The position numbers and the translations under genes were made by a program. A stretch of DNA of 15,364 nucleotides from Abditibacteriaceae bacterium (lineage in GTDB: Bacteria > Armatimonadota > Abditibacteriia > Abditibacteriales > Abditibacteriaceae), in contig JANPJS010000112.1 in NCBI GenBank assembly GCA_031425655.1, positions 1 to 15,364 of the forward strand. The letters are read 5' to 3'. Shown here piece after piece: positions 1 through 15,364 of the stretch (position 1 is the first letter of the stretch; each line of letters starts with the position of its first letter). Below the pieces are notes generated by a model that made no database searches, was not told where the DNA came from, and was given only the letters and a program-made list of their open reading frames with translations.

Positions 1-182
1 GTTGCTACCTATTGAAGATAAATAATGGAGCCGCACTTTGCCCTCACCCAACCTCCCCCGGAGGGGGAGGAGCCGCGTTTTCTCAAGGATTTTTGCCCTG
101 AAGAGCGCACTCCTCCCCCTCCGGGGGAGGTTGGGTGGGGGTTGAATGCGACTCCACTACTTCGGATGTGATAGGTAGCAAC
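1..182. repeat. Nested inverted-repeat element (REP doublet inside an outer inverted repeat), truncated by the window start
   Basis: Inner arms 41-72 (ccctcacccaacctcccccggagggggaggag) and 110-141 are reverse complements with 1 mismatch, and each arm has its own hairpin (cctccccc-gga-gggggagg). Middle arms 26-37 and 145-156 match 10/12. Outer arms 1-12 (gttgctacctat) and 171-182 (ataggtagcaac) match perfectly. Confidence 0.9.
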
Positions 183-192
183 TTGGGTTAAT

Positions 193-1611
193 TTATGCTG
201 CGCTTTTCCAATCGGCATCGCGCAATCCGGCGAGTTCGCCGGTGCTGTCGCCGAAAGCGGCGAGCGGCGTGCCCATGCAATCGAGCATCGTGCGATACAG
301 GTTGCACAGCGGCGTTTTCTTTTCGTAGACGAGATGGCGGCCCGTGACGATTTTGCCGCCGCCTTTTCCGGCCAAAACAATCGGCAGATTGTGCGGCGAA
401 TGCGCGTTGCCGTCTTTCATGCCGCTGCCGAACATCACCATGCAGTTGTCGAGCAGCGTGCCGTTGCCTTCCTTGATGGACTTCAATTTTTCCAACAAAT
501 ACGCATATTGCTGCAAGTGCCAGATGTTGATTTTCTGATACTGCTCCAACTTCGTTTTGTCGTTTTCGTGGTGCGAAAGGTGATGATGCCCGCCGCTCAC
601 GCCTTCAAGAAACGAGAAATTCTTGCCCGAAACCTCGTTGCCGAACATGAAAGTCGCAATGCGTGTGGCGTCCGTCCAAAAGGCCAGAGCGATGATATCG
701 AGCATCAAACGCACTTGCTCGGTGTGGTTAATGGCACGCTCGCCAAGTCGCGCCGGATCGCTGTAATAATCCTTGATGCGCCCGCCGAGTTTCTCCACTT
801 CGCGGCGCGCTTCGGCATCAGTTTCGTATTCGCCTTTACGACGCGCGGCATCGAACGCGATGCGTTTTTCCACAGAGCGCACCGACTCAAAATACTCGTC
901 TAATTTCAAGCGATCCGCAGCGCCGACTTTATTTCGCAGACTTTGCGCGTCTTCCCGCACGGCATCAAGCACGCTGCTGTCATTGACACCCGAACGGCGC
1001 GCGGTGCGCGGACGGAAAAGGCGGTCGAACGCCAGTTGCGGATTGATTTCGCGCATGACAGGCGTGGTCGGCGTGGCCCACGAAATGTGCGAGCCGTAAA
1101 TGCGTGTGAAGCCGACATTGATATCCACGCCCATCGTGACCGGCTCAACAGAAAGCTCCAGCGACGGCAGCGGCGTCAGGTTGCCGATGCGCTGCGCCAT
1201 AATCTGATCGAGCGAAACCGCTCCGACGCGCAATTCGCTGCCCGTTGTTTTAGTGATAGCGGTTCCGGTCAGAAACGGCGCGACTTTGACGTAGTGCCCA
1301 TCGCCTTCGATGCTGGCCTTGTTCATCAACTCGCTCAGCACCAGAATGTCGGATTTCACATTGGAAAGCGGTGCTAAAATCGGCGATAGCTCAAACGCGC
1401 CGCCGATGCCGCCCGGCGTCCACGCCGCCGGATTGACACCGTTCGGCATATAAAGCGCGGCCATGCGAATCGGCGGGCCGCCGGGCGTATTCGGCCCCGA
1501 TTCCCCTTTTTCTTCGGCGAGCGCCGGGCGCGACAAAGCTTCCATCCACGGCAGGCACATCGTCACGCCCAAGCCTTTTAACACGGTGCGACGCGAGATT
1601 TCACGATTCAT
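193..1611 (-). CDS. DUF1552 (HxxSHH) family protein, probably Tat-exported
   Basis: About 472 aa. N-terminus SRRTVLKGLGVTMCLPWMEA (twin-arginine-like), R-x-AALYMPNG, ISWATPTTP...INPQLAFDRLF, SVLDAV, HHHLSHH, GTLLDN...GNAHSPHNLP...GG...GRH, PLCNLY...FGDSTG are typical of DUF1552. GAGG lies upstream at 1623-1626. The start is either ATG 1611 or TTG 1617. Confidence 0.93.
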   Translation of the reverse strand: MNREISRRTVLKGLGVTMCLPWMEALSRPALAEEKGESGPNTPGGPPIRMAALYMPNGVNPAAWTPGGIGGAFELSPILAPLSNVKSDILVLSELMNKASIEGDGHYVKVAPFLTGTAITKTTGSELRVGAVSLDQIMAQRIGNLTPLPSLELSVEPVTMGVDINVGFTRIYGSHISWATPTTPVMREINPQLAFDRLFRPRTARRSGVNDSSVLDAVREDAQSLRNKVGAADRLKLDEYFESVRSVEKRIAFDAARRKGEYETDAEARREVEKLGGRIKDYYSDPARLGERAINHTEQVRLMLDIIALAFWTDATRIATFMFGNEVSGKNFSFLEGVSGGHHHLSHHENDKTKLEQYQKINIWHLQQYAYLLEKLKSIKEGNGTLLDNCMVMFGSGMKDGNAHSPHNLPIVLAGKGGGKIVTGRHLVYEKKTPLCNLYRTMLDCMGTPLAAFGDSTGELAGLRDADWKSAA

Positions 1612-1629
1612 AAGCAATTCAGCCTCATT

Positions 1630-1789
1630 TTTTCAATGGAACACGGATTTTCGCGGAAACGGCCACGGATTTTTAATTGAATGCGTTGTTGCGCCACGCT
1701 TAAAGGAAAGGGACATACAAAACCAAATCCAATTAAAAATCCGTGTCAATCCGTGGCCGTTTCCGCGAAAATCCGTGTTCCATTGAAAA
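1630..1789. repeat. Long inverted repeat built from short CACGGAT/CGCGGA units, lying between the two genes of the operon
   Basis: Arms 1630-1671 and 1748-1789 are a perfect 42-bp inverted repeat. 1664-1679 also pairs with 1730-1745, so the right arm carries one extra 10-nt unit. Confidence 0.95.
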
Positions 1790-1791
1790 TC

Positions 1792-3693
1792 TTAATTCTT
1801 CCGATATTGAAACGGGTAGCTTTTCACGATTTCGAGAATCAACGTTTGCGCGCGATAATCGTTGCCTTCGACTTTTTTGGCGATGGCGCGCACGGTCGGG
1901 ACATCGTGCGGCTCCAAGCCGCGTCCGAGCGCATAAGCGAGCATTTTTTCCGTCAAATTCCGCACGAAATCAGCTTTCCGTTTTTGCAAATGCGCTTTGA
2001 GTTCCAGCGGGCCGCTGAACTTTTCGCCGTTGACTAAAACGCCGCTGGCATCCACCGGCGCGCCACCGATTTCTTCGCGCCAGCGGCCAGTCGCGTCGTA
2101 GTTTTCCAAACCGAAACCAATCGGGTCCATGCGCGCGTGGCAGCCGGCGCATTCGGGCTTTTTGCGATGTTCTTCGAGGCGCTGGCGAAAACTCAAGCCG
2201 TCTTGCACGGCATCATTGGCGGGCAAAGCACCGACACTGGGCGGCGGCGGCGGCGGCGGTGTGCCCAGCACTTCTTCGAGCACCCATTTGCCGCGCAAAA
2301 CCGGACTGGTGCGCTGAGGAAACGAAGTGACGGTAAGAACCGCCGCCGTCGTTAAAAGCCCGCCGCGACGGCCTTTTTCGACATTTACGCGCCGCAATTC
2401 GGCGCCGCTGACGCCCTCAATGCCGTAATGCTTAGCCAGTTCCTCGTTGACAAAACTGTAATCGGCGTCCAGCAGTTGCAGCAGATTGGCGTCTTCGCGC
2501 GCCACGCTGCCGAAAAACTGTGTGACTTCTCCGAACATGGCGTCGCGCAGCGTGGGCGTGAAGTTGGGAAATTTATTCGGATCAGGCTGCACGACGCCGT
2601 ATAATTCGCGCACATGGAGCCACTGCCCGGCGAAACTTTGCGCGAAGGACTCGAATTTGGCGCTGGCGATGAGGCGCCGCACTTGTGCTTCGAGGATTTT
2701 CGGATCGCGCAGCTTCTTTTTCGCCGCGAGATTGAGCAGTTCGCCATCCGGCATCGAAGACCATAAAAAATACGACAAACGGCTGGCCAATTCCCAATCA
2801 TTGACAAGATACGGGGCCGCCGATTTCTGCTGATTTTCGATGCGAAACAAAAAGTGCGGCGACACCAAAACCGCTTTAAGTGCCAGTTTTATAGCGTCCT
2901 CGAAATTCGCGCCGCGCGCCGTTGCGCCGCTAAAAAGGCGCATCAAACGCTCGATTTCCAGCTTTTCGGCAGGGCGGCGAAAAGCGCGCGACGCCAAACG
3001 CTCAAGAATCGCGCGGGCCGCAGCCGGCGATTTTTTAAGCGGCTGCGTGCCGAAAATGCGCTCGCGTGGTGCTTCGCTGAGAATTTCTTCGGCGGCTTCG
3101 AGATAACGCTCCATCAAAATCGGAGGCACGAAAAGCGTGTCGGCATTGTTGTCAAAACCGCCGCCACCGCCGCCGTCGGCGGGAAATTTATCCGCCGGAT
3201 TCGAGGTCACGCCCAACAAATCCCGAATCGTGTTGTTATATTCGAGGCGATTGAGGCGATGAATAACCACGCGGCCCGGATCACGCGAAACGGCGTTTTC
3301 CTCGAAGTTGTCGAGCGTTTCTTTGAGCCATTGCACGATTTTTTCGCGCTGCTCGTCGCCGGGTTGAGGTTTGTTGGCCGGCGGCATGGCGCGCTCGTGC
3401 ATTTGCGTGATGACTTTGCGCCACAGCGCCGGGTCGCGTTGAATCGAAAGCGCCGTGTCAAAGCCCGACAAATTCACCTCGCCCGATTGCTTTTTCGCGC
3501 CGTGGCACGAGCCACAATATTGATCGAGCGCCGGACGAATCTCTTTTTCAAAGCGGCTCTGTGAAGAAAGAGGCTCAAATTTCTTTTCGTCCGCTGGCCG
3601 CGCCGCGCGCACGCCGAGCAACAAAACCGGCAGGGCCACAAAAAGCCAAACGCGGCGCGAGTGCGGCGAAAATTGAGTGTCCAACAAAGGCAT
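1792..3693 (-). CDS. Planctomycete-type cytochrome c protein with DUF1587/DUF1595/DUF1592/DUF1588/DUF1585 domains
   Basis: 633 aa with a hydrophobic N-terminal signal and two heme motifs (CGSCH, CAGCH). MPP, RLNRLEYNNTIRDLLG, GFDN, AFRRP, LVSPHFLFR, ELASRLSYFLWSSMPD, FAGQWL, RGGLLT...TSPVLRGKWV, DPIGFGLENYDATGRWR and YALGR are the characteristic motifs. It precedes DUF1552, the usual partner. Confidence 0.95.
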   Translation of the reverse strand: MPLLDTQFSPHSRRVWLFVALPVLLLGVRAARPADEKKFEPLSSQSRFEKEIRPALDQYCGSCHGAKKQSGEVNLSGFDTALSIQRDPALWRKVITQMHERAMPPANKPQPGDEQREKIVQWLKETLDNFEENAVSRDPGRVVIHRLNRLEYNNTIRDLLGVTSNPADKFPADGGGGGGFDNNADTLFVPPILMERYLEAAEEILSEAPRERIFGTQPLKKSPAAARAILERLASRAFRRPAEKLEIERLMRLFSGATARGANFEDAIKLALKAVLVSPHFLFRIENQQKSAAPYLVNDWELASRLSYFLWSSMPDGELLNLAAKKKLRDPKILEAQVRRLIASAKFESFAQSFAGQWLHVRELYGVVQPDPNKFPNFTPTLRDAMFGEVTQFFGSVAREDANLLQLLDADYSFVNEELAKHYGIEGVSGAELRRVNVEKGRRGGLLTTAAVLTVTSFPQRTSPVLRGKWVLEEVLGTPPPPPPPSVGALPANDAVQDGLSFRQRLEEHRKKPECAGCHARMDPIGFGLENYDATGRWREEIGGAPVDASGVLVNGEKFSGPLELKAHLQKRKADFVRNLTEKMLAYALGRGLEPHDVPTVRAIAKKVEGNDYRAQTLILEIVKSYPFQYRKN

Positions 3694-3766
3694 AGAGAAT
3701 TTTCAGACAGCCGCGCGACGGCTTTTGTGGCTTTCAACCGCCCAAAAAGAGAAAATCAAAGCCAAT

Positions 3767-4483
3767 ATGAAACACCAAATCGAAGTGACCGGACATCGCG
3801 GCGCGGCGGCTGTTGAGCCGGAAAATACCTTGCGCGGCTTTCACTATGCGCTGTCGTTGGGCGTCAATTACGTGGAATTAGATGTGCATTTATCCAAAGA
3901 CGATGAGCTAATCGTCATGCACGACGCAGCGGTAGACCGCACCACAAACGGCAGCGGACAAATCGCCGACATGACATTGGCGGAAATCAAACGCCTTGAT
4001 GCTGGACAAGGCGAAAGCGTGCCGACTTTGCACGAAGTCGTCGCAACATTTCAAGCCGCGTGGGCAAAAGGCAGCCAAACGCGCTTGAAAATCGAACTCA
4101 AAGGCCCAAATACCGCTCAGCCGACGGTCGCCTGTGTTCAGCATTACGGCATCGAAGATCGCGTCGTGCTTTCCAGTTTCGACGCAGAGCGAGTCGCCGA
4201 AGCCAAAAAGCTGCTGCCACAAGCAGCTTGCGCTTTTATCAGCAGTAAATTAGACCCCGACCCGTTGAAAATCGCGCTTCGCATCGGCGCCGGCGCGGTG
4301 AACTTACAGCACAAATCAGCGACGCGCGAAATGGTCGAACGCGCTCACGCCGCCGGTTTGCAAGTGTGCGTGTGGACTATTGACGAAGCCAAACTCATGA
4401 AAGCGGCGATTGATCTCGGCGTGGACGGCATCTGCAGCAACAAGCCGCAGCTTTTACTCGAAGTCCTCGCCGGACGCGCTTAA
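3767..4483 (+). CDS. Glycerophosphodiester phosphodiesterase (GDPD family, cytoplasmic)
   Basis: 238 aa from ATG 3767; the longer ORF-track start overlaps the divergent gene. Motifs GHRG-x5-PENT, VELDVHLSKD, VMHD..VDRTTNG, IELK, SSF, VWTID and GVDGI are present. No signal peptide. Confidence 0.95.
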   Translation: MKHQIEVTGHRGAAAVEPENTLRGFHYALSLGVNYVELDVHLSKDDELIVMHDAAVDRTTNGSGQIADMTLAEIKRLDAGQGESVPTLHEVVATFQAAWAKGSQTRLKIELKGPNTAQPTVACVQHYGIEDRVVLSSFDAERVAEAKKLLPQAACAFISSKLDPDPLKIALRIGAGAVNLQHKSATREMVERAHAAGLQVCVWTIDEAKLMKAAIDLGVDGICSNKPQLLLEVLAGRA

Positions 4484-4535
4484 CGCGCTTCAAAAATCGG
4501 CGAACTATCGAGAGTCGAAGGTTTTCATAAACTCC

Positions 4536-5525
4536 ATGCGACACCATTTTGCTTTTTTTCCCGCTTTTGCATTTACGCTTTGCAGTTTTCAAAACGCGAC
4601 GGCGCAGCCACCGACGCTGGTTTCTCAACAGCCACCGCCCCGCGTGGGCACGCCGGAAAAGTTATTGGTTGATGATGTAAAGGCGTTCGTAGCTGCACTC
4701 AATGGAGAAGACCCAGTGTTGGACGCCGGAAAGTATGTGTGGAAGGCACACATCGGCTTTTATGGCGCCACTGAATGGCAGAGGTGGTGGCTTGAAACAC
4801 GCGGAACTCATTGGCTGGCGATAAGTGATGTGCGTGTCGTCAAAATAGAGGGCACCGAAGCCGAAATCACGCTTTCGCATCGCCGCGATGCCAAGCAGGC
4901 ACAGGCCACCATCGAAGGCCCATTTACCCTGAAATTCGGCCCCTCGCCGTTGGATAAAAGCATCGGAGGGCCAATCGCAATCTGGCAATTCGTGCCGCAA
5001 AGACCGACAGCGGCGGAATCGCTATCGGTGGCGCCGCTGCGCTGGGCAATTTGGATGGTGGCGCAATCTCCTAATGCGAATGCGACCAAATCGTTTCGAG
5101 AAGCCGAATTAGCAAGCCAGCCCGAAAAACGAGCCTCAAATCGAGAAGCCGAATTAGCAAGCCAGCCCGAAAAACGAGCTTCAAATCGTCTTAAACAGGT
5201 GGCCCGCGCAGTCTTCAGGTTTGTGAACGATTTCGAGGAAATCTACGCCTTTTTGCCGGAATTTCAAGAAGAAGCTCTCGATCCTTATCTCGAAAACTCC
5301 GAAGCGTGGAATGTTCCCGGCACAACCGAAAAATTTCTCTTTAATGGGCGGTTGAGCGGAAAGAGAGAAGCTCAAGTCGCTGAAAAAGAGCGCACGATTC
5401 TCTTCTACGACGGCGCTGATGAAAAGCCGATTTATCGCTTCGATGGCAAAACGGCGGTCGCTTTAGCCGATGGCCACGTCGAAATGGCCGATGCCCAACA
5501 ATTTAAAACTTTCCTGTGGCAATAA
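4536..5525 (+). CDS. Secreted hypothetical protein with a degenerate C-terminal DUF1559/H-X9-DG-like (pilin-associated) region
   Basis: 329 aa from ATG 4536 with a signal-like N-terminus (MRHHFAFFPAFAFTLCSFQNATA). The C-terminal half (SNRLKQVARAVFRFVNDFEE...LDPYLEN...FLFN..LSG...TILFYDG...YRFDGKTAVALADGHV) resembles the 'SNLKQI...Y.QDYDE...RH.GG.N..F.DGHV' pattern. Confidence 0.75.
   Translation: MRHHFAFFPAFAFTLCSFQNATAQPPTLVSQQPPPRVGTPEKLLVDDVKAFVAALNGEDPVLDAGKYVWKAHIGFYGATEWQRWWLETRGTHWLAISDVRVVKIEGTEAEITLSHRRDAKQAQATIEGPFTLKFGPSPLDKSIGGPIAIWQFVPQRPTAAESLSVAPLRWAIWMVAQSPNANATKSFREAELASQPEKRASNREAELASQPEKRASNRLKQVARAVFRFVNDFEEIYAFLPEFQEEALDPYLENSEAWNVPGTTEKFLFNGRLSGKREAQVAEKERTILFYDGADEKPIYRFDGKTAVALADGHVEMADAQQFKTFLWQ
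5096..5185 (+). repeat. 45-bp in-frame tandem duplication (REAELASQPEKRASN x2)
   Basis: 5096-5140 and 5141-5185 are identical at 44/45 positions; the difference (gcc vs gct) is synonymous. Confidence 0.97.
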
Positions 5526-5539
5526 ACCGCAATTTTGAA

Positions 5540-7819
5540 TTAACCCGGCTCCCAACCGCCCAGCACGTTGGCGATGGTGTAATGTGCGGCTTCGTCGGGC
5601 GCAAGCCGTTTGGCCCACGCAACACGCGCCGATAAATCAACCGGCTTGCCGTCGGAGGTTACGCTGCCAAATTCGGCGTAGCGGGCGGTTTTTTCGGCGT
5701 CGGGCTTGTCCCAGTTGTGCCAGCCTTCGGGCTTTATCACATTGTCCATCGTGGTGTTCAGCCAAACGGTATGGGCATAATCGCGCCACGGGCGGCCCAG
5801 CATGGTTTTCACGCCCGGCTCGCCGGTGATTTTGCAGTGCGAGAAAACCAGTCCGTAAGGCCGCTCCTGCGGCGTGTTAGCGGCGGTAATCCATCCTGCT
5901 GCGTCAACGACGTGAATATGGCAGCGGTCGAAAAACGCGGTCGCTTCGCCATAAATGAAATCAGTGCGTCCGACGATGAAACATCCGTCGAAATACTGGC
6001 GCCCGCTGCGAACACGAATCGTGTCCTGATAACCCAAAAAGCGGCACTTGCGAAAGATGGCGCGGTCGGCATCCACATAAATGGCGAGAGCCTGCTCGAT
6101 ACGCGGCGCGTTGTTCTCGAAAGTCAAGTTTTCGGCGCGAAAATCGGCGCCCGCGATGACTGTGCTGGCACTGCCGATGGTGCCGACTGGCCTGCCGTCC
6201 GCGCCCGACGAATTGATGCGTAAGTCGTTGGTCAACACCGTTTTTTCAGCGTCCTGACCGAGAAAAGTGATGAAAGGCTTGTCCTTCGGCACCACGATGT
6301 GCGCTTTATAAAGACCGGGCTTGATAAGAATGATGACGCGCTTTGAATTGTTGGCTGGAACCGCATCAATAGCTTGCTGCACCGTTGTAAAATCGCCGCT
6401 GCCGTCTGCCGCGACTATGAAATCGGGCTTGGCTTGCGCTTGAATTTGGCGAGGATCAATGTTGTTTTTCGGGTCGCGGTAGTCTATGAATTGATGCGGA
6501 TCGGTGCTGTTTAGAAACTCTTCGACGTTGCTATAACTGTCTTTGTCATCGTCCGCTGCGCCATCAGCGGCATTTTGCGGATTTAACGTGTTTTGCGTTT
6601 CCCACGCGTCCGGCATTCCATCGTGATCGCGGTCAGCAGGCGCGGGCAACGACTTGAGTTCGGGCCAGCCGCCGACTTGCGTTTGCGAGTCAATCATGCG
6701 CCCGCCGCGCGTTTTGACTTGCTCGATAATGCGCGCATCCACAGCATCGCGCGCGGGCAGCGAAGCGCCGACAAAAGCCAAAACATCGGCATAAGCCTCA
6801 CGCGCTCCCGTCGTGCGAACAATGGGCACGGGAAACGGGTTGGGCACGATTTCGACTTGCTTTTTGCCGTCCATTTCAATTTTGTCGAAGAACTGGTTAT
6901 TGTCCGCCGTTTGCGCCGCATCGCCCTCGAAAATGTTGTCTCGAATGAAGAATTGCAGCTTGGACGGCGCGCCGATGCGAATCGGATGTTTGGCTTCGCT
7001 GGAGGGGCCGGGCAAGATGAAATTTCCGATGTAATTCGCCCCAAAAACACCTTGCGTCATGCCGGTGCAGAGCTTTCCGTAATTGTAGATGAGGTTGTTT
7101 CGCACGTCGAAAACGGGAAACGGCGGCTTATCGTAGTTATCGCCCAAGCGCGGATTGCGCGCGTCGTTGTGCGCCCACAAATTATGATGCAGCGACATGC
7201 CGCCGTTCGCACGCACCAGCGAGCCGTAGCCATGCGAGCCTTTGGCATGAACGCTTTGGCGCAGCGCTTCGGAAATAATGCACCATTGCACCGTGACGTC
7301 GGAAACATCGCCGCCAAGCGAAAGCGCTTCGTCTGTTGACCAACTCGCCGAACAATGATCCAAAATCACATTGCGCGCCCCGCGCCAAATCGTGATGGCG
7401 TCGGCTTCCTTGCCGCTTGTGTCGCCCATGCGCGAACGCAAATAGCGCACAATGATGTTCTGTCCGGCGATGTTCAGCGTGTAGTTGCGAAGGCAAATTC
7501 CCTCGCCGGGCGCCGTCTGTCCGGCAATAGAAATGTTCGACTTCAGAATATCTAATTTTTTTTGTAAGGCGATAGTGCCCGACACGCGAAAGACAATGAT
7601 GCGGTTGCCCTCGCTGACCGCCTCGCGCAGTGAACCGGGGCCGGAATCGTTCAAATTGGTGACTTCGTATACGGCTCCGCCGCGCCCTCCCGTCGCCCCG
7701 CCACCAAAGCCTTCGGCGCCGGGAAAAGCGGGCAGAAAATCCGCCGCGATTGCTGCCGGACAACAACTCAACACTGCGAACGCGACGACGATTGCGAAGC
7801 GTAATTTGATGACTTTCAT
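5540..7819 (-). CDS. Secreted pectate lyase (PL1-like) fused to a C-terminal pectin methylesterase (CE8)
   Basis: 759 aa from ATG 7819 with a Sec signal (MKVIKLRFAIVVAFAVLSCCPAAIA). Lyase part: AFPGAEGFG, GGRGG.VYEVTNLNDSGPGSLR, IAGQTAPG, ILDHCSASWSTDE, RNPR, and a DRDHDGMPDAWE...EEFLN tail. CE8 part (about 5543-6424): VAADGSGDFTTVQQAI, PGLY, QALA, GYQDT, DFIYG, LGRPW. Confidence 0.93.
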   Translation of the reverse strand: MKVIKLRFAIVVAFAVLSCCPAAIAADFLPAFPGAEGFGGGATGGRGGAVYEVTNLNDSGPGSLREAVSEGNRIIVFRVSGTIALQKKLDILKSNISIAGQTAPGEGICLRNYTLNIAGQNIIVRYLRSRMGDTSGKEADAITIWRGARNVILDHCSASWSTDEALSLGGDVSDVTVQWCIISEALRQSVHAKGSHGYGSLVRANGGMSLHHNLWAHNDARNPRLGDNYDKPPFPVFDVRNNLIYNYGKLCTGMTQGVFGANYIGNFILPGPSSEAKHPIRIGAPSKLQFFIRDNIFEGDAAQTADNNQFFDKIEMDGKKQVEIVPNPFPVPIVRTTGAREAYADVLAFVGASLPARDAVDARIIEQVKTRGGRMIDSQTQVGGWPELKSLPAPADRDHDGMPDAWETQNTLNPQNAADGAADDDKDSYSNVEEFLNSTDPHQFIDYRDPKNNIDPRQIQAQAKPDFIVAADGSGDFTTVQQAIDAVPANNSKRVIILIKPGLYKAHIVVPKDKPFITFLGQDAEKTVLTNDLRINSSGADGRPVGTIGSASTVIAGADFRAENLTFENNAPRIEQALAIYVDADRAIFRKCRFLGYQDTIRVRSGRQYFDGCFIVGRTDFIYGEATAFFDRCHIHVVDAAGWITAANTPQERPYGLVFSHCKITGEPGVKTMLGRPWRDYAHTVWLNTTMDNVIKPEGWHNWDKPDAEKTARYAEFGSVTSDGKPVDLSARVAWAKRLAPDEAAHYTIANVLGGWEPG

Positions 7820-7929
7820 GTTCAAAATCCTACAACACGTCGCGCCGTTTGCACCGCGCACTCAACAACAAAAAAACAATATGCGTCTTGCCTGTTTGAA
7901 AAATAGCTATCACTCCTAGGTTGAGCCGC

Positions 7930-8050
7930 TTTAAATAGGACGCGGAGCTTCGCTACGCAGATTTTATGCGCGGATTCTCGCTGATTTCTTTCGGTAAAAT
8001 CGCGCCTTCAAAGCCGTTTCCGCGAAGCGAAGCTCCGTGTCCTATTGAAA
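7930..8050. repeat. REP doublet (REPIN-like) with ATAG-initiated arms
   Basis: 7930-7958 and 8022-8050 are inverted, 26/29 identical. Each arm has ATAG followed by an imperfect hairpin (gcggagc-ttc-gctacgc), the classical REP layout. Confidence 0.85.
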
Positions 8051-8105
8051 AGTCTTCGATTTGAGGCTTTGACGAATTCTCAAACAGCTTGTAAGTCTTT
8101 CCAAG

Positions 8106-8174
8106 CGGGGCTAATGCCCTCTTCCAAACAGAGAACATCCATCACTCCGCTGTTTGGAAGAGGGCTTAGCCCCG
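8106..8174. repeat. Second REP-like doublet / long hairpin (GGGGCTAA-GCCC type)
   Basis: 8106-8131 pairs with 8150-8174 as a 25-bp stem with one bulged T and an 18-nt loop. The arms contain the small hairpin gggc-taa(t)-gccc. Confidence 0.88.
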
Positions 8175-8272
8175 GCCTACGGCTCAGCATCAGCCGCAAT
8201 GCCACTTTTGCAAGAGGTCTAATGAGATTCACGGCTTTCATTGGAAGGTCTCTCAACGAAGCATCGAGGCAC

Positions 8273-10234
8273 TTAGAGATGCGGATGAGCGCGGTTGCTG
8301 TCCCACCAATTGCGCCAAGTTTTGAGCAGCGCGTCAGGGTTTTCTTGCAGCGCGCGGCCTAAGCCATGCTTCGGCAAATGCGTGATGCTCTGCAAAGCAC
8401 GACGCGCCTGCGCCTGCACTTCCGCCGTCGGGCCACGTTGGGCCAAAGCGATCATTTCGCCAACGTATTGCCTGCCGGCGTGCGGCAAAAGCGCCAAACC
8501 GCGCTCTGGCCAGTGCGGCGGATTGTGGGAAGCTAAGGTTTCCAACAGCCCGGCGCGGTCAGACGGCGTGCCGCTACGCAAGATTGTGACGATTATCGCT
8601 CGCGCTTCGGGCAAATCAAGGCGCTTGAGAATCAAATCGTAAGCGCGGTCGCGGTCGAATTGCGTGAAGCGTCCGCGATTGGTGAACACAGTTTTTAGCA
8701 ACGAGAACGCGGCGCGCGGCGAGTTGAGCGCGACCGCTTCGATAATCGGCAACACGTTGGCGCGAGGCTGCTTGACGAGCGAAGCGAAAACCGCGCGCAA
8801 TTCATCGAGCGTGGCGGCTTGCCCACAGTCGCGCAAATAAGCAACGGCTTCCTCGCGCTGCTGCCAATCGGCAGAGGCACGCATTCGCGCCAATACACGC
8901 ATTCGCGCCAATAAAAGCACGGCACGTTCGCGCGTTTTGTAGCTGCCCAGCAGCGCGTGCGTGCGCTTATCGAACAGGGGCGACGGCGAAGCCAAATCAC
9001 GAAAAATTACTTCACGCACTCCGACATCGCCCGCCAAAAGCAACACTTTTAACGCCGCCGAGCGCAGTTCAGCGTGCAAACCTTGATTCATCGCCACCGG
9101 GCGCAGCAACGCTTGCAATGTGGCATCGCGCGGCATTTTGTTCAGCAGAAGGGCCAACGAACCTTGCTGCTTGCGCTCTATTAAGGAGGCATCGCGCAGA
9201 AGGCGGCGCCACAACCTCGCATCGCTGCGCGCCGACGGCGTATTCATCATAAGCGCAACGGTAAACTCGGCTGCTTCTTTGGGTTGAAGGCTCTCGACAC
9301 GACTCATCATCTGCGGCATCAATTTCGTTTTCCAATGCTCGTAAAACGCCCGAAACGCTTTGGAATACGCCGCGCTCGAATAACCAGGTTCGGGATTCTG
9401 CAAGCGCATTTCGGTATGCGCGAGGATGAAGGCCATCTGTGAGATATGTCCCGGTTGGCGCAAAGCGTCCGTCTCATCGAGCACGCGCAGTAATGCGGCT
9501 TTGACTTTTGTCGCGTCCGGGATATTTTGCAATCCGAGTCCGGCGTGCTGGGCCGATTGCTCGCCTGCAAGAAGTCCGCGCGCTAAAAACGGCAAGGCGC
9601 GTTCGTCGCGCACGACGCGCAGTTCGCGCATGATTTCCTGTCGTGCGATGCGGCTGGAACCATCGTCGTCGCGCGGCATTTGTGCGGCGCGCTCGAACAT
9701 TTTTTGGCGCGCGGCCTCGTCGGGCGGCGTGATTTCCAGAATTAACGGCGCGCTTGATGGAGCATTTGGGTTCGAGCCGAAACCGTCGAGATATTTGTCG
9801 CCAGCGCGCCCGACGCTTTTGTGAGCGCGAATCGTGTATTTTCCGGGCCGGTCGAGAGCGAGCCACTGGTTAAGAAAAGCCGTCTGCTCGTAAGGTTTGC
9901 CGGGCGAAATGGCCTGTGTCGGCAGTGGCCCGCCGAAAACGCACGCCGTCGGCCCTCTCAAATGCGGCACCGCCTTGCCCTGTTGGTCAGTGGCAGCGAA
10001 GGAGGGCGAAAAGCAGAGATCAAGCCAGTCGGCGCCGGACGATAACACATAAAACGTCCCGTTTTCGCTGCTGAAACGCATTCGCACCGCGATGATTTCG
10101 CCCGCCGCGAAGTTCGTTTTATCGGCGAGTAATTCAAATTTCAGACCGGCAGGCGGGGCGGCGCCCGGCAATTTTTCCAGCGCCAACGCGCCACGCGCCG
10201 ACAGCAACATCACGAGAAACAGGAAAATTTTCAT
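8273..10234 (-). CDS. Secreted hypothetical protein with a beta-rich N-terminal domain and an alpha-helical (HEAT-like) C-terminal region
   Basis: 653 aa from ATG 10234 with a signal peptide (MKIFLFLVMLLSARGALA). The N-terminal region has an Ig/intracellular-proteinase-inhibitor-like pattern (F..GE.I.V...ISPG......LNQW..LDRPGKYTI). It is followed by DERALPFL, ELRSAAL and EVQAQARRALQSIT...W..WW, a pattern typical of HEAT-repeat proteins. The domain calls are inference. Confidence 0.75.
   Translation of the reverse strand: MKIFLFLVMLLSARGALALEKLPGAAPPAGLKFELLADKTNFAAGEIIAVRMRFSSENGTFYVLSSGADWLDLCFSPSFAATDQQGKAVPHLRGPTACVFGGPLPTQAISPGKPYEQTAFLNQWLALDRPGKYTIRAHKSVGRAGDKYLDGFGSNPNAPSSAPLILEITPPDEAARQKMFERAAQMPRDDDGSSRIARQEIMRELRVVRDERALPFLARGLLAGEQSAQHAGLGLQNIPDATKVKAALLRVLDETDALRQPGHISQMAFILAHTEMRLQNPEPGYSSAAYSKAFRAFYEHWKTKLMPQMMSRVESLQPKEAAEFTVALMMNTPSARSDARLWRRLLRDASLIERKQQGSLALLLNKMPRDATLQALLRPVAMNQGLHAELRSAALKVLLLAGDVGVREVIFRDLASPSPLFDKRTHALLGSYKTRERAVLLLARMRVLARMRASADWQQREEAVAYLRDCGQAATLDELRAVFASLVKQPRANVLPIIEAVALNSPRAAFSLLKTVFTNRGRFTQFDRDRAYDLILKRLDLPEARAIIVTILRSGTPSDRAGLLETLASHNPPHWPERGLALLPHAGRQYVGEMIALAQRGPTAEVQAQARRALQSITHLPKHGLGRALQENPDALLKTWRNWWDSNRAHPHL
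8878..8913. repeat. Perfect 18-bp in-frame tandem duplication
   Basis: cacgcattcgcgccaata at 8878-8895 and 8896-8913, giving LARMRV-LARMRA in the protein. Confidence 0.95.
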
Positions 10235-10493
10235 GGTGGGATTTTTCAAACCTGCCTTTCAAAAACGGGGCGCTGATGGCAGTGTGGCGGCTCACGGCGT
10301 TTCAAACAATAAGACTTGTATCAAACGACAGTGCAGCGGAGCCAATTTAAGCATCGCGCGTCTTCCAAAGCCACCAAAACCGAAGCAGCGGGCATGAAAG
10401 TCGCGCTTTCGTGCCTCAAAAGCTCTGCTGCGGGGTCAAACCACTGTTCAAAATCCGGCGAATCGCCGAAACTGGGCCTACTTTTCAAATCCC

Positions 10494-13400: not shown

Positions 13401-13697
13401 CCGCAGGCGCTTTATATGATGAACAGCCCGTTCGTCATGGAACAAGCGCGCCATTTTGCCGAAAGCCTATTGGCGCAGAAGGACAAAAGCGATGCCGATT
13501 TGCTACGTATCGCTTATCTGCGTGCTTATAGCCGCGTGCCCGCAGCGGCGGAAACCACGCGTGCGACCGCGTTTTTAGCGCGCTACGACGCAGCTTTAAT
13601 CGCTTCCGAACCCGACGCCGCCAAGCGCCGCGTCAAGGTGTGGAGCGGGCTTTGTCAGGTTTTGTTGGCAGCCAACGAATTTGTGTTTGTGAATTAG
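10494..13697 (+). CDS. Planctomycete cytochrome c (PSCyt1) + DUF1549 + DUF1553 protein with an inserted CBM6/CBM35-like module
   Basis: 1067 aa with a Sec signal. FFETKVRPVLADNCYKCH...PGDPEKS...MPP...WVKMGAPW (PSCyt1); PIDNFI...LIRRAYFDLVGL.P, YGERWGRRWLDVARYADS, AWRYRDYVI, CARCHDHKFDPI (DUF1549); SGRLQFAEW...HPLTSRVMVNRVWQGHFG.G, PSHPELLD, RRLEAE..RD, QALYMMN (DUF1553); ends in NEFVFVN. Confidence 0.96.
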   Translation: MTQFSSRILCLSALSFSAVLTVKAADAPKITPEQSAFFETKVRPVLADNCYKCHSEKKQAGNLRVDSLAALLKGGDFGPSLVPGDPEKSKLVEAIRYHNDDLQMPPAGKMKQPDIDAIVEWVKMGAPWPNAGGAGEAPKTVAKVWTITPQQRAFWSLQPIKKVALPVVKDKAWIKSPIDNFILARLEAAGLQPAPPADRRTLIRRAYFDLVGLAPTPEEVDAFLNDKAPDAYAKVVDKLLASPQYGERWGRRWLDVARYADSNGLDENTAFGNAWRYRDYVIAALNKDKPYNEFVKEQIAGDLMPTDDPMLRNDRLTATAFMSLGAKVLAEPDKPKFAMDIVDEQIDTTTKAVLGLTVACARCHDHKFDPISTKDYYAIAGIFKSTRTMVNLNTVAKVFQRPLASPEVEAEIKIKQEDVKKADGEVKRISNAANQDLRSALNNDVGKYILAGWELAQGGGLFTIGDTPVKAGDPERLIIEAEKYNRGDFTKNFDSYGKDIGVIHSANSTFAEWDITLPAAGDYQLELRYAAQDSRPVRLKVNDQTIAENALTGTTGSWNPDGQKWEAQGIFKFIEGKNVLRLESKGVIPHIDKLLVVASKAPEGQAAPSRTAQQIAGQRKLIQSVVEAWAKTLRPLRGKAEFAAWKELAMAPDADFNASAQKIATQVKGTEGAELAPIRAAITAKKGPLTVPDKAEELYPKDVKDKLAKANEVLKKAQEAVPQAPMTIAVEDAATIENVKVHIRGSTQSLGDEVPRRFPTVLAGETQTPLPEKTSGRLQFAEWMAKDDHPLTSRVMVNRVWQGHFGEGIVRSPDNFGLRGELPSHPELLDYLSATFVENGWSLKKMHRQIMLSNTYQMSSLSNAKGELKDPDNKLFWRMNRRRLEAEPLRDTLLQVSGQLDLSPGGTLLSTKDSDYVTNDQSKNGAQYDKPRRSIYLPVIRNAVYDFFQAFDFGDPSSVNGKRADTTIAPQALYMMNSPFVMEQARHFAESLLAQKDKSDADLLRIAYLRAYSRVPAAAETTRATAFLARYDAALIASEPDAAKRRVKVWSGLCQVLLAANEFVFVN

Positions 13698-13761
13698 GTT
13701 CTGGGTTTTGGGTGCTGGGTTTTGGGGTATTTCCAGTCCCCATCACCTAACCCCCAAAACC
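13695..13761. repeat. Inverted arrays of degenerate heptamer repeats (STRR-like)
   Basis: Plus strand: taggttc tgggttt tgggtgc tgggttt tggggta (13695-13729). Minus strand of 13732-13761: ggttt tgggggt taggtga tggggac tgga. Both have the consensus TRGGKNN and face each other. Confidence 0.85.
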
Positions 13762-13764
13762 GCC

Positions 13765-13769
13765 GGAGG
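13765..13769 (+). promoter_or_regulatory. Shine-Dalgarno site of the DUF1501 gene
   Basis: GGAGG located 5 nt before ATG 13775. Confidence 0.75.
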
Positions 13770-13774
13770 CATTT

Positions 13775-15223
13775 ATGACTTTTTGTAACAATCGCAGAAA
13801 CGCCGTCACGCGACGGGAGATGCTGAAGCAGTTCAGCGGTGGCTTTGGAATGCTGGCTTTAGCCGGACTCGTCGGCGAAAACGACGCCAAAGCCGCTGCC
13901 GCAGTGGCTAAAGCCACCGCGAAAAGCGGCGCCGCGAATCCCTTAGCGCCCAAAGCGCCGCAGTTTCCGGCCAAAGCCAAGCGCGTGATTTACCTCTTCA
14001 TGCACGGCGGGCCATCGCAAGTGGACACTTTCGACCCGAAGCCGCTGCTGACGCGCGATCACGGCAAGCCACTGCCTTTTGCCAAGCCGCGCGTGACTTT
14101 CGCCGGAACCGGCAACTTGCTGAAATCGCCGTGGGAATTCAAGCAATACGGGCAAAGCGGCACGCCTGTCAGCGACTTGTTTCCCGAAGTCGCCAAATTC
14201 GTGGACGATTTGTGCGTGATTCGCTCGATGAAGGCCGACAACAACGCACACGGCGGCGCGCTTTTGCAAATGCACACCGGCTCTGATTCGTTCGTGCGTC
14301 CCAGTATTGGCTCGTGGGTGACTTACGGATTGGGCACGGAAAATCAGAATTTGCCCGGTTTCATCACCATTTGCCCGACGCTGGGACACGGCGGTGTGCA
14401 AAATTGGTCGAGCGCCTTTTTGCCGGCTTACGCGCAGGGCACGCCGATTGGCAACGCCAGCATCGCCGCCGAAAAAGCGAATTTCGCTTACATCAACAAT
14501 CCCAGCGCCAGCACCGATTTACAGCGAATGCAGCTCGATTTGCTCAAAGACATGGGCGAAGATCAGCTCAAGCATTTCGGCCACGACCCGAATTTAGAAG
14601 GGCGCATTCAATCGTTCGAGTTGGCCTATCGAATGCAAACCGAAGGGCCGGGTTTAATGGACATTTCCGGCGAAAGCAAGGCCACGCTCGATCTCTATGG
14701 CATCGGCGACAAAACGACGGACAATTTCGGACGCCAATGCCTTTTGGCGCGCCGCTTCGCTGAGAAAGGCGTGCGCTTTATCCAGGCGACGCATTCTTAT
14801 AAGTGGGATCAGCACGGTAACCTCAAAGGCGGGCACACACAGAACGCCAAAGAAGTGGACAAGCCGATTGCCGGCCTGCTTGCTGACTTGAAGGCGCATG
14901 GAATGTTGGACGACACCTTAGTTTTATGGGGCGGCGAGTTTGGCCGCACGCCTGTGGCACAAGGCGACGATGGGCGCGATCACAACCCGAACGGTTTTAC
15001 AGTTTGGATGGCCGGCGGCGGCGTCAAGCCCGGCTCGATTTACGGCGCCACCGACGATTACGGTTATTACGCCACGCAAAACGTGATGCACATCCACGAT
15101 TTACACGCCACAATTCTGCATCTGCTCGGCTTAGATCACTTGAAGCTAACTTATCGCTACGGTGGCCGCGACTTCCGCCTCACCGACGTTTACGGCGAAG
15201 TCGCACACGACGTGATTGCTTAG
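13775..15223 (+). CDS. DUF1501 family protein, Tat-exported
   Basis: 482 aa. TRREML...GFGMLALAGL signal, KAKRVIYLFMHGGPSQVDTFDPKP, RPSIGSWVTYGLGTENQNLPGF, SFELAYRMQ, FGRQCLLARR..EKGVRF, WDQH, GEFGRTP, GRDHNP.GF..WMAGGG and HDLHATILHLLG...RLTDV are present. This is the usual partner of DUF1549/DUF1553 proteins. Confidence 0.96.
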   Translation: MTFCNNRRNAVTRREMLKQFSGGFGMLALAGLVGENDAKAAAAVAKATAKSGAANPLAPKAPQFPAKAKRVIYLFMHGGPSQVDTFDPKPLLTRDHGKPLPFAKPRVTFAGTGNLLKSPWEFKQYGQSGTPVSDLFPEVAKFVDDLCVIRSMKADNNAHGGALLQMHTGSDSFVRPSIGSWVTYGLGTENQNLPGFITICPTLGHGGVQNWSSAFLPAYAQGTPIGNASIAAEKANFAYINNPSASTDLQRMQLDLLKDMGEDQLKHFGHDPNLEGRIQSFELAYRMQTEGPGLMDISGESKATLDLYGIGDKTTDNFGRQCLLARRFAEKGVRFIQATHSYKWDQHGNLKGGHTQNAKEVDKPIAGLLADLKAHGMLDDTLVLWGGEFGRTPVAQGDDGRDHNPNGFTVWMAGGGVKPGSIYGATDDYGYYATQNVMHIHDLHATILHLLGLDHLKLTYRYGGRDFRLTDVYGEVAHDVIA

Positions 15224-15230
15224 AATAATT

Positions 15231-15364
15231 CACCGCAGAGGACGCAGAGAGCGCAGAGGATTTAAGAGAAACAAGCAAAAAGAGATGAGCATCGAATCGT
15301 AATCAGCTTTCGTTACTCGTTTGCCGTTTCTCTTAAATCCTCTGCGCTCTCTGCGTCCTCTGCG
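15231..15364. repeat. Long inverted repeat built from 9-nt CGCAGAG units, truncated by the window end
   Basis: 15234-15272 and 15326-15364 are a perfect 39-bp inverted repeat. The units are accgcagag gacgcagag agcgcagag. Pairing continues imperfectly inward (gcaaa/tttgc). Confidence 0.95.

What the first reader, a model, noticed from the sequence alone, without database searches (positions are those of the whole stretch)
1..15364. Six different palindromic repeat types occupying gene 3' ends in one 15-kb window
Seen: inverted-repeat elements at 1-182, 1630-1789, 7930-8050, 8106-8174, 13695-13761 and 15231-15364. They share architecture (two facing arms around a unique spacer) but little sequence. 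Four sit within about 10 nt of a stop codon (193, 1792, 13697, 15223). Neither divergent promoter gap (3694-3766, 10235-10493) has one. No mobilising enzyme is encoded in the window. Inference: the genome hosts several independent non-autonomous element systems converging on the same post-stop niche, each spread in trans. Only the REP/RAYT type has a described mechanism that I know of; the short-tandem-unit types may represent an undescribed mode of mobility.
Basis: partly seen in the sequence, partly recalled or inferred. Interest (0 to 1): 0.8.

Follow-up and report, generated by a model that had tools for sequence, protein, structure and literature searches.

The report
Hairpin repeats swapping at operon junctions
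All six mirror-image repeats are real members of about 30 repeat families that fill 2.5% of this bacterium's genome: two (likely three) ride inside miniature transposons, and three are gene-less copies of arms that elsewhere enclose small unstudied genes and that appear to replace one another at the same gene junctions, likely by a DNA-copying route I did not find described.

Summary
The six inverted repeats are real and multi-copy (24-96 loci each). They are not six independent systems, and the density is ordinary here: 990 paired elements, 2.5 per 15 kb.

There are two routes. E1 and E3 (probably E4) are hairpin cores inside MITEs with IS982- or IS5-type ends. Sister MITEs have target duplications, and a transposase with the same ends exists (this genome; a congener). 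That mobility is known.

E2, E5 and E6 are naked hairpins; those between co-directional genes fill tight stop-to-start junctions. Their arms elsewhere enclose a GxxExxY nuclease-fold gene (E2, E6) or, for E5-like arms in relatives, a four-helix-bundle gene. They show no target duplication, no gene remnant and no G·U bias of an RNA stem.

At 230 orthologous junctions, occupied sites stay occupied in congeners (65/119 vs 13/111), usually by the same class but a different family (same family 7/91). This points to replacement in place. The enzyme step is inferred.

This scan found the cassette-hairpin link before on other DNA of this genome and in other genomes. My paper searches did not find it in print.

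The parts
1..188 (.). E1 whole element: IS982-type MITE. The left terminal repeat is cut by the contig end (1-12 remain); the right terminal repeat is 171-188, 4 nt before the stop codon at 193-195.
   Evidence: 28 short pairs of this terminal repeat genome-wide, 15 of 28 with a 5-9 bp exact duplication; a 989-bp element with the same ends at G000:C114:17783-18771 encodes an IS982 transposase, NF033520 146 bits vs cut-off 130. The duplication of this copy cannot be checked.
36..147 (.). E1 core: REP-like doublet of family F13, the type found upstream of a DUF559 gene
   Evidence: Same doublet upstream of DUF559 at G000:C144:550-861; similar arms beside DUF559 genes of relatives, read by eye
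1630..1789 (-). E2: naked hairpin of family F0 (9-10-nt units) filling the junction between the DUF1592-group gene (stop 1792) and the DUF1552 gene
   Evidence: Same arms enclose GxxExxY gene G000:C215:20824-21159 and a metagenome homolog L311. Site empty in G001, F28 hairpin in G003, collapsed remnant in G002.
7892..8091 (.). E3 whole element: IS5-family MITE with two different subterminal halves; left end damaged; right end followed by TAA (8092-8094)
   Evidence: 29 short pairs, 28 holding an F0 core; 15 of 29 with a direct 3-bp duplication, 52 of 58 flanking triplets TNA; full-length IS5 with matching ends in congener G003, L144, NF033580 222 bits; extent from blast coverage
7930..8050 (.). 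E3 core: F0 hairpin, same family as E2
   Evidence: Same arms enclose GxxExxY gene G000:C228:10664-11002; clustered with E2
8105..8176 (.). E4: REPIN-like doublet of family F10, partner of a REP-associated tyrosine transposase; no conserved GTAG/GTGG foot
   Evidence: Motif on both sides of RAYT G000:C100:58-594 (NF047646 106 bits); related arms beside 5 of 5 homologs in relatives, one partly masked
8206..8220 (-). IS-type terminal repeat outside E4. Its partner end appears to be split by the E3 MITE (remnants near 7886-7890 and 8092-8097); this nesting is inferred.
   Evidence: Same end beside other F10 and F13 copies and one complete 384-bp pair with a 3-bp duplication
13698..13766 (+). E5: naked heptamer hairpin (family F20, GGGTTTT/GGGTGTT units) between the DUF1549/1553 gene (stop 13697) and the DUF1501 gene (start 13775)
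   Evidence: Clean empty site in G001; related heptamer hairpins in G002 and G003; 15 paired and 17 solo copies in G000. The G002 arms enclose a four-helix-bundle gene at L074. No such gene with these arms was found in G000.
15229..15364 (+). E6: naked hairpin of family F5 after the DUF1501 stop (15223); right arm cut by the contig end
   Evidence: Same arms enclose GxxExxY gene G000:C54:9204-9551. Site holds F28 in G002 and G003 and F9 in G001.

Best explanation
The six repeats are gene-less hairpins of four arm types that reach their sites by two routes: E1 and E3 (likely E4) are cargo of miniature IS982- and IS5-type transposons that would be moved in trans by ordinary DDE transposases, while E2, E5 and E6 are naked hairpins that are likely copied over an older hairpin at the same operon junction by a DNA-level cut-and-copy repair, with their small partner genes as the predicted drivers. 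Shown: family membership, the MITE ends and duplications, the pairing of arm type with partner gene, the junction niche, persistence of occupied sites with change of family, and the lack of duplication, of gene remnants and of RNA-stem bias in the naked class. Inferred: that the PD-(D/E)XK-fold GxxExxY protein nicks hairpin or cruciform DNA, and that repair templates on another copy. Also inferred: that the four-helix-bundle protein, which has no known catalytic activity, binds its heptamer arms and recruits a host nuclease or recombination step. The split into two routes I put at about 0.9; the replacement mechanism at about 0.5.
For: Partners: same-family arms on both sides of 6 of 9 GxxExxY and 5 of 7 four-helix-bundle genes of G000 by HMM; 4 of the 6 short genes (of 1022) enclosed by facing arms are GxxExxY. 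Outside the genome, 77 of 79 homologs of the L074 four-helix gene have a period-7 array on at least one side and 60 of 79 have facing arms (9 of 79 in mismatched controls). 37 of 70 homologs of the C215 GxxExxY gene have facing arms (6 of 70 controls), and only 5 of 70 have period-7 arrays (1 and 10 of 80 loci dropped for short flanks). Two routes: 286 of 287 heptamer and 296 of 361 GxxExxY-type pairs lack IS-type ends. Duplications of 5 bp or more: 7 of 229 and 14 of 247 naked copies (shuffled 4.8 and 11), against 17 of 28, 19 of 28 and 14 of 23 for three MITE families (shuffled 3.7, 1.8, 1.9). Naked classes avoid divergent gaps (11 of 259, 14 of 277 vs 519 of 4116; p about 1e-5). Persistence: 65 of 119 junctions occupied in G000 are occupied in the relative against 13 of 111 unoccupied (p 2.5e-12), with class concordance 29:3 and 9:14 (p 7e-5). 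A folding-only repeat gives 42 of 88 vs 25 of 99 (G003) and 15 of 26 vs 1 of 17 (G002). The same family was seen at only 7 of 91, and dominant families differ by lineage (F2 39 arms/Mb in G000, 6.5 in G003; F28 1.7 vs 11.6 and 26). Five junctions that carry a gene cassette in a relative carry a gene-less hairpin of another family in G000. DNA level: sense-strand G·U:A·C is 244:240 and 153:203 and 118:97 and 88:134 ungapped, against 48:19 in 304 terminator-like controls. The GxxExxY model (pLDDT 91.5) has a restriction-endonuclease-like fold.
Against: No cleavage, binding or movement was observed. Relatives are 72-79% identical in coding DNA, too far to give breakpoints or the direction of change; G001's empty sites could be losses. 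54 of 119 occupied junctions scored empty in the relative, some through detector misses. HMMs were built from G000, which biases family counts toward it. The junction sample is 1.38 Mb of G003 and 0.42 Mb of G002, chosen by handle and not at random, and kin are not independent. No four-helix gene with E5 arms was found in G000. The IS5 matches in G000 are fragments or contain stops; the intact partner of the E3 ends is in G003. The IS982 ORF has an odd repeated stretch and may be damaged. Fold matches are middling (best Z 8.6, rmsd 2.9 over 96 residues; Foldseek E 3e-5) and show no function. The four-helix protein has no known catalytic activity. Gene starts come from my own simple caller.
Confidence: 0.5

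Rival explanations
1. Independent insertion into hot spots. Each naked family is cut and pasted in trans by its own partner protein, REPIN-style, into tight operon junctions that tolerate it. The same junctions are hit again in each lineage, and no resident hairpin is needed.
For: Clean empty sites exist: E5 and E2 in G001, and a TAATG overlap in G000 where three congeners have a GxxExxY cassette. Lineage-specific expansions. RAYT/REPIN and Ssn/NTS give a precedent for one gene plus many gene-less copies (passages).
Against: Tight junctions are not scarce, yet most stay empty in both genomes (98 of 111). Where G000 has a naked hairpin and the relative has no HMM hit, the relative's gap is 35 nt or less in only 9 of 52 cases, against 51 of 105 for junctions empty in G000. 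Class concordance at the site needs a further assumption of class-specific targets.
Confidence: 0.2
2. Vertical descent with drift. The hairpins are old, their tandem units change in place by slippage and arm-to-arm copying, host recombination homogenises copies, and the partner genes are passengers.
For: The E5 site keeps a related unit and the same distal flank in G000, G002 and G003. A copy's own two arms match better than arms of random copies in 10 of 12 families. Cassettes persist at one junction in three congeners. Mixed subterminal halves in E3-type MITEs (23 AB, 6 AA) suggest exchange between copies.
Against: Cross-class exchanges occur (heptamer to GxxExxY type 3, reverse 9; the E6 site holds F5, F28 or F9), which drift of a unit cannot give. 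One family reaches 95 paired copies in one lineage only. Arm type tracks protein family across the phyla sampled.
Confidence: 0.17
3. Host-selected RNA elements: terminators, stabilisers or RNase III sites that tune operon expression, like the 23S rRNA intervening sequence.
For: Very stable predicted hairpins. Strong bias to transcribed junctions. 14 of 14 gene cassettes with an upstream neighbour are co-directional with it. The Coxiella IVS has a four-helix ORF, heptamer repeats and RNase III excision (passages).
Against: No G·U excess on the sense strand, unlike terminator controls. The sense strand is more stable in only 104 of 231 and 103 of 210 copies. None of the 33 terminator-like sites lies in the six elements. 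Occupant sequence is not conserved.
Confidence: 0.08
4. Scar model: only the gene-bearing cassette moves, and each gene-less hairpin is a separate internal deletion of it.
For: Spacers of F1, F5 and F12 are mostly unique (3 of 45, 9 of 31, 6 of 28 shared). The E2 spacer has a short look-alike of a GxxExxY start (p 0.007 in one of 40 comparisons).
Against: 0 of 217 GxxExxY-type and 0 of 233 heptamer copies reach 5 bits against the partner profile in the co-directional frame. Short or old remnants would be missed.
Confidence: 0.05

Closest known systems
Prokaryotic MITEs of IS982 and IS5 families (PMC7335449 and PMC10969869, passages read; IS1031-subgroup features recalled, from no call)
   Same: E1 and E3 wrappers: terminal inverted repeats, target duplications in sister copies, no ORF, a ~1-kb or ~0.85-kb autonomous element with the same ends; IS982 5'-AC ends.
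   Different: Their middles are hairpin doublets from other repeat families, and one set of IS ends carries several different cores. Left and right halves are shuffled.
REPIN/RAYT (REPtron, TIRtron; PMC3116915, PMC6006769, PMC3733652, passages read)
   Same: Inverted doublets with conserved arms and variable spacers; one partner gene flanked by its own repeat; several families per genome; location near 3' ends. E4 is of this kind.
   Different: E4 lacks a conserved GT[AG]G foot. For E2, E3, E6, E5 and the E1 core the partner is a PD-(D/E)XK-family or four-helix protein, not an HUH transposase. The arms are short tandem units, often one arm on each side of the gene, and they abut both stop and next start.
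Ssn nucleases with NTS/SRM hairpins (PMC11893778: abstract, Results part 1 of 4, Discussion read)
   Same: A small single-domain nuclease gene flanked by a hairpin with many gene-less copies; proposed domestication. Family F4 of this genome lies beside a small GIY-YIG gene.
   Different: None of the six window elements is F4. GxxExxY and DUF559 are PD-(D/E)XK-family, not GIY-YIG. No activity has been tested for them here.
ORF-bearing 23S rRNA intervening sequence (Coxiella, Leptospira; PMC4990558, passages read)
   Same: Four-helix-bundle PF05635 gene inside inverted repeats, with heptamer repeats before the start.
   Different: Here the cassettes and their gene-less copies lie at mRNA operon junctions, in hundreds of copies, with no sign of selection for an RNA stem.
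Cyanobacterial STRR heptamer repeats (recalled; search returned 0 papers)
   Same: Intergenic 7-bp tandem units; cyanobacterial four-helix genes have such flanks.
   Different: I did not compare them with published STRR sequences; the link rests on recall.

Membership tests
IS982-family MITE (E1) | Terminal inverted repeats beginning 5'-AC | tested here: met
   ACCC-started repeat at 171-188 and in 28 short pairs; feature from PMC7335449 abstract
IS982-family MITE (E1) | Autonomous ~1-kb element with the same ends and an IS982 transposase | tested here: met
   G000:C114:17783-18771, 989 bp, NF033520 146 bits over cut-off 130; intactness not shown
IS982-family MITE (E1) | Target-site duplication | tested here: met
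   Family level: 17 of 28 with 5 bp or more vs 3.7 shuffled. The window copy is cut and could not be checked.
IS5-family MITE (E3) | Terminal repeats shared with an autonomous IS5 element | tested here: met
   L144 in G003, NF033580 222 bits, ends within 4 mismatches of the 18-nt probe; only fragments found in G000
IS5-family MITE (E3) | 3-bp TNA duplication (IS1031 subgroup; feature recalled) | tested here: met
   15 of 29 direct, 52 of 58 flanking triplets TNA; the window copy's left end is damaged
IS5-family MITE (E4 wrapper) | Two terminal repeats, duplication, autonomous partner | tested here: inconclusive
   One clear end at 8206-8220; one complete pair elsewhere; no autonomous partner found
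REPIN/RAYT (E4) | Same repeat flanks a RAYT gene | tested here: met
   G000:C100 RAYT, NF047646; 5 of 5 homologs in relatives
REPIN/RAYT (E4) | Inverted doublet forming a hairpin, many copies | tested here: met
   43 paired copies; z -8.1
Canonical GTAG REP (E4) | GT[AG]G tetranucleotide at the hairpin foot | tested here: not met
   No conserved 5' context among 151 arms; GT[AG]G is not among the 15 commonest
REPIN/RAYT (E2, E3 core, E5, E6, E1 core) | Same repeat flanks an HUH tyrosine transposase | tested here: not met
   None of 6 PF01797 genes of G000 has F0, F5, F13 or F20 arms
MITE (E2, E5, E6) | Target-site duplication and IS-type ends | tested here: not met
   Class level: 7 of 229 and 14 of 247 vs 4.8 and 11 shuffled; no IS-type end near these three
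Ssn/SRM | Partner is a single-domain GIY-YIG protein | tested here: not met
   Partners of the six are PF13366, PF05635, PF04480, PF01797; the small GIY-YIG gene pairs with F4
Ssn/SRM | Specific cleavage of single-stranded DNA at the repeat | not testable with these tools
   Needs a nuclease assay
23S rRNA intervening sequence (E5 class) | PF05635 ORF inside inverted repeats | tested here: met
   L074 and 60 of 79 homologs; E5 itself is gene-less
23S rRNA intervening sequence (E5 class) | Located in a 23S rRNA gene | tested here: not met
   E5 lies between protein genes; no Rfam match in the window
23S rRNA intervening sequence (E5 class) | Excised from RNA by RNase III | not testable with these tools
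   Needs RNA end mapping
Rho-independent terminator | Short GC stem with U tract, sense-strand G·U bias, conserved at the site | tested here: not met

The most novel reading that the evidence does not exclude
Bacteria host a widespread kind of selfish DNA in which several unrelated small proteins (a GxxExxY nuclease, DUF559, and a four-helix bundle with no known catalytic activity) each drive their own hairpin family to overwrite older hairpins at operon junctions. This homing into a structure rather than a sequence needs no transposase or reverse transcriptase and leaves no duplication, and IS ends then capture such hairpins as MITE cores. It would give a function to three unexplained protein families and tie together heptamer repeats and rRNA intervening sequences.
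Probability: 0.3. Interest if true: 0.87.

Novelty: new variant of a known kind. Interest (0 to 1): 0.64.

Why it matters
Half of the finding reduces to known biology (MITEs, a RAYT doublet). The other half names concrete protein-DNA pairs for families with no known function: GxxExxY/PDDEXK_3 is listed as 'Unknown' in PMC3424549, and S23p proteins 'have no known function' in PMC4990558. One genome offers three GxxExxY proteins with their own arms for a cross-specificity assay. If they cut their own hairpins they would be new structure- and sequence-specific nucleases, as Ssn turned out to be. Replacement in place would explain why repeat-rich bacteria keep the same operon junctions filled while the repeat sequences turn over.

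Tried and rejected
Chance: 0 inverted repeats of score 18 or more in 1.57 Mb of codon-shuffled genome, against 1646 in the real 5.98 Mb. Known RNA families: none. Terminators: rejected. Gene remnants in spacers: none; the E2 look-alike does not survive 40 comparisons. Target duplications of naked copies: none above shuffle. Retro-mobility through an Avd-like role of the four-helix protein: no PF00078 reverse transcriptase found in G000 (97% complete), so set aside but not excluded. A four-helix gene with E5 arms in G000: not found with TIGR02436 or PF05635. Contig ends joining the window's ends: none found. Relatives of the C100 RAYT in viral contigs: none. Solved structures by sequence: none for GxxExxY; 2RLD and 2GSC for the four-helix family. 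Fold search gave only a general restriction-endonuclease-like fold; no specific family stands out. Sequencing runs: no RNA holder listed. Contigs of four DNA runs showed no listed joint that skips an element; one contig in X3/X4 (98.6% alike over 1794-2001) begins with 63 unlike letters at the E2 site, a weak hint whose letters I did not see. Orthologs of the E3/E4 junction: not found, since only the pectinesterase half of the 5540-7819 gene matched relatives and the 8273-10249 gene did not. Paper searches for the pairing found nothing on it: GxxExxY + repeat (1 unrelated paper); four helix bundle protein + tandem repeat + flanked + intervening sequence; REPIN/RAYT/DUF559 (0 occurrences of DUF559 in the 9 listed); MITE + IS982 + duplication; nested MITE/REP (none relevant by listing); heptamer/STRR/four-helix; Avd/IVS (1 review, listing only); PDDEXK_3 + palindrom (1 survey). 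The library lacks most subscription papers, and I read no supplements.

Full report
Observation. The window is the whole of contig C112 of a 5.98-Mb, 327-contig genome. The six inverted repeats are at the stated coordinates and fold far better than shuffles. Each has 24-96 related loci. The eight ORFs include DUF1552, DUF1592-group, GDPD, pectinesterase, DUF1549/1553 and DUF1501 proteins, two have no Pfam family, and none matched a mobility enzyme. A de novo scan found 1161 short inverted-repeat elements, against none in 1.57 Mb of shuffled DNA. They cluster into 30 families of five or more members. Profile search gave 990 paired elements and 764 solo arms, 2.5% of the genome, 2.54 pairs per window length. 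57 of 555 sliding windows hold five or more pairs, the count this window gets by the same rule. Two of the six sit at the contig ends, as at 315 of 654 ends. The window is rich but not exceptional.

How many kinds. E2 and E3 belong to one family, F0; E1 is F13, E4 F10, E5 F20 and E6 F5. I looked for genes inside or beside such arms. G000 has 9 GxxExxY, 7 four-helix-bundle, 3 DUF559 and 6 Y1-transposase matches. E2-type arms enclose the GxxExxY gene on C215, E3-type arms that on C228, and E6-type arms that on C54. The E1 core lies upstream of DUF559 on C144, and the E4 motif flanks the RAYT on C100. Related arms flank 5 of 5 homologs of that RAYT in relatives, without a GT[AG]G foot. No four-helix gene with E5 arms is in the assembly. 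The hairpin at the E5 site of congener G002 has the arms that enclose the four-helix gene L074. Among outside homologs of L074, from records titled Acidobacteriota, Cyanobacteria, Planctomycetota, Chloroflexota and others, 77 of 79 have a period-7 array and 60 of 79 have facing arms (9 of 79 controls). Among homologs of C215, 37 of 70 have facing arms (6 of 70 controls) and 5 of 70 a period-7 array. Arm type thus follows protein family: four superfamilies, not six.

First route: MITEs. Comparing flanks showed an outer layer on many elements. E1 ends at 188 in a terminal repeat that bounds 28 short elements, 15 with a 5-9-bp duplication. The same repeat bounds a 989-bp element encoding an IS982 transposase; 5'-AC ends and ~1 kb are the family's marks (PMC7335449). 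E3 is the core of a ~200-bp element, 7892-8091. 28 of its 29 sister pairs hold the same core, 15 have a direct 3-bp duplication, and 52 of 58 flanking triplets are TNA. An intact IS5 with matching ends lies in G003; G000 shows only fragments with related ends. TNA includes TAA and TGA, and 9 of 23 such MITEs with an upstream stop lie within 2 nt of it, so target choice alone can explain part of the post-stop position. E4 has one IS-type end at 8206-8220, and the E3 MITE seems to have split the other (inferred). In all, 233 of 990 pairs have an IS-type end on one or both sides, and wrapped elements do not avoid divergent gaps (37 of 182). This route is known biology.

Second route: naked hairpins. 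286 of 287 heptamer and 296 of 361 GxxExxY-type pairs have no IS end. In tandem gaps these two classes begin a median -1 and +2 nt from the stop and end 7 and 15 nt before the next ATG. They avoid divergent gaps. They show no duplication above shuffle, while three MITE families do under the same test. Their spacers carry no detectable remnant of the partner gene (0 of 217, 0 of 233). Mismatches between arms show no G·U excess on the transcribed strand: 244:240 and 153:203, or 118:97 and 88:134 by an ungapped method. Terminator-like hairpins of the same genome give 48:19 (a different detector). This argues for a DNA-level life and against selection as RNA stems.

Orthologous sites. The E2 junction is empty in G001, holds an F28 hairpin in G003 and a collapsed remnant in G002. 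The E5 junction is cleanly empty in G001 and holds related heptamer hairpins in G002 and G003. The E6 site holds F28 in G002 and G003 and F9 in G001. The E1 site has a plain terminator-like hairpin in G003 (by eye). I then compared 230 orthologous tandem junctions, 187 in 1.38 Mb of G003 and 43 in 0.42 Mb of G002. Occupied sites tend to be occupied in the relative (65 of 119 vs 13 of 111), mostly by the same class (29:3, 9:14). A folding-only test agrees in both relatives. The same family was found at only 7 of 91, and the dominant families differ by lineage. Of 25 cassette loci of relatives, 10 gave an adjacent gene pair in G000. Three of these (one site) are a bare TAATG overlap, five carry a gene-less hairpin of another family, one carries a family not in my profiles or none, and one was not interpretable. 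The slot persists and the occupant changes.

Mechanism. For the wrapped class, DDE transposases in trans are the standard reading, and the parts are shown. For the naked class I favour replacement in place: a partner protein recognises and nicks a hairpin or cruciform, and repair copies another element over it. The GxxExxY model is confident (pLDDT 91.5), keeps invariant D71 and K83 with nearly invariant E81, and has a restriction-endonuclease-like fold with middling scores. That fits a nuclease but proves no activity. The four-helix protein matches only uncharacterised structures, and no reverse transcriptase was found, so its step is the weakest. The rivals are repeated insertion at hot spots, vertical drift with host conversion, RNA function and scars; each is weighed in its own section.

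Comparison and novelty. The design of one gene flanked by its repeat plus many gene-less copies is that of REPtrons and TIRtrons (PMC6006769, PMC3733652, PMC3116915; passages) and of Ssn/NTS (PMC11893778). The four-helix gene with heptamers inside inverted repeats is that of the Coxiella 23S intervening sequence (PMC4990558; passages). E4 passes the RAYT-partner test but not the GTAG-foot test. E2, E5 and E6 fail the RAYT, MITE, Ssn and rRNA-location tests. My searches found no paper linking GxxExxY, DUF559 or four-helix genes to dispersed hairpin families; the library is incomplete and I read no supplements. This scan's earlier notes report the cassette-hairpin link and swapping in this genome and in others; they are not independent support. 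What I tested here is the split into wrapped and naked classes, the duplication and G·U tests with controls, and the count of site persistence.

Noticed in passing
genome-wide; e.g. G000:C108:54427-54560, L010, L085: A ~17-nt motif (CTGCCCAGAGGGCRCCC type) occurs 238 times, 164 of them in or beside catalogued elements of several unrelated families, as an optional insert in the arms. It may be a tiny mobile unit of its own.
   Followed up: partly
L123 (G000:C256:25891-26106): A small GIY-YIG gene has an F4 hairpin doublet upstream, like Ssn/SRM; F4 has 49 paired copies.
   Followed up: partly
L136 (G001:C621), L143 (G005:C40): Full IS5-family elements appear inserted into an F4 arm at CTCAG/CTGAG, a possible first step in making MITEs with hairpin cores (read by eye).
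   Followed up: no
G000:C281:18074-19325 and 29 short pairs: A 1252-bp element with an ISAs1-like ORF (family named from recall, not scanned) and MITEs with the same ends, 12 of 29 with a 10-bp duplication, carrying RAYT-type and other cores.
   Followed up: partly
window 3698-3711: The first divergent gap contains 14 nt resembling the inner part of the E3-type IS5 end, without the terminal bases. The flanking genes lie on different contigs or far apart in relatives, so it may mark a rearrangement.
   Followed up: no
window 5096-5185 and 8878-8913: In-frame tandem duplications of 45 nt and 18 nt inside the two ORFs without a Pfam family.
   Followed up: no
window 5540-7819 (-): The 759-aa protein has a pectinesterase domain at 466-754; only that half matched the orthologous regions fetched from G001-G003, so the N-terminal half may be a lineage-specific fusion.
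   Followed up: no
L047, L048, L049 vs G000:C193:13437: A GxxExxY cassette is kept at one junction in three congeners, while G000 has a bare TAATG overlap there.
   Followed up: partly
L033 (G010:C33): In this other genus the E5 and E6 sites hold a short palindrome around CAAAGTACTTTG, a family not among my 30.
   Followed up: no
heptamer families genome-wide: Most heptamer left arms fit one frame, purine-purine-purine-T-N-N-N, and often begin on the upstream stop codon; F2 shows more A·C than G·U on the sense strand (104 vs 51), unexplained.
   Followed up: partly
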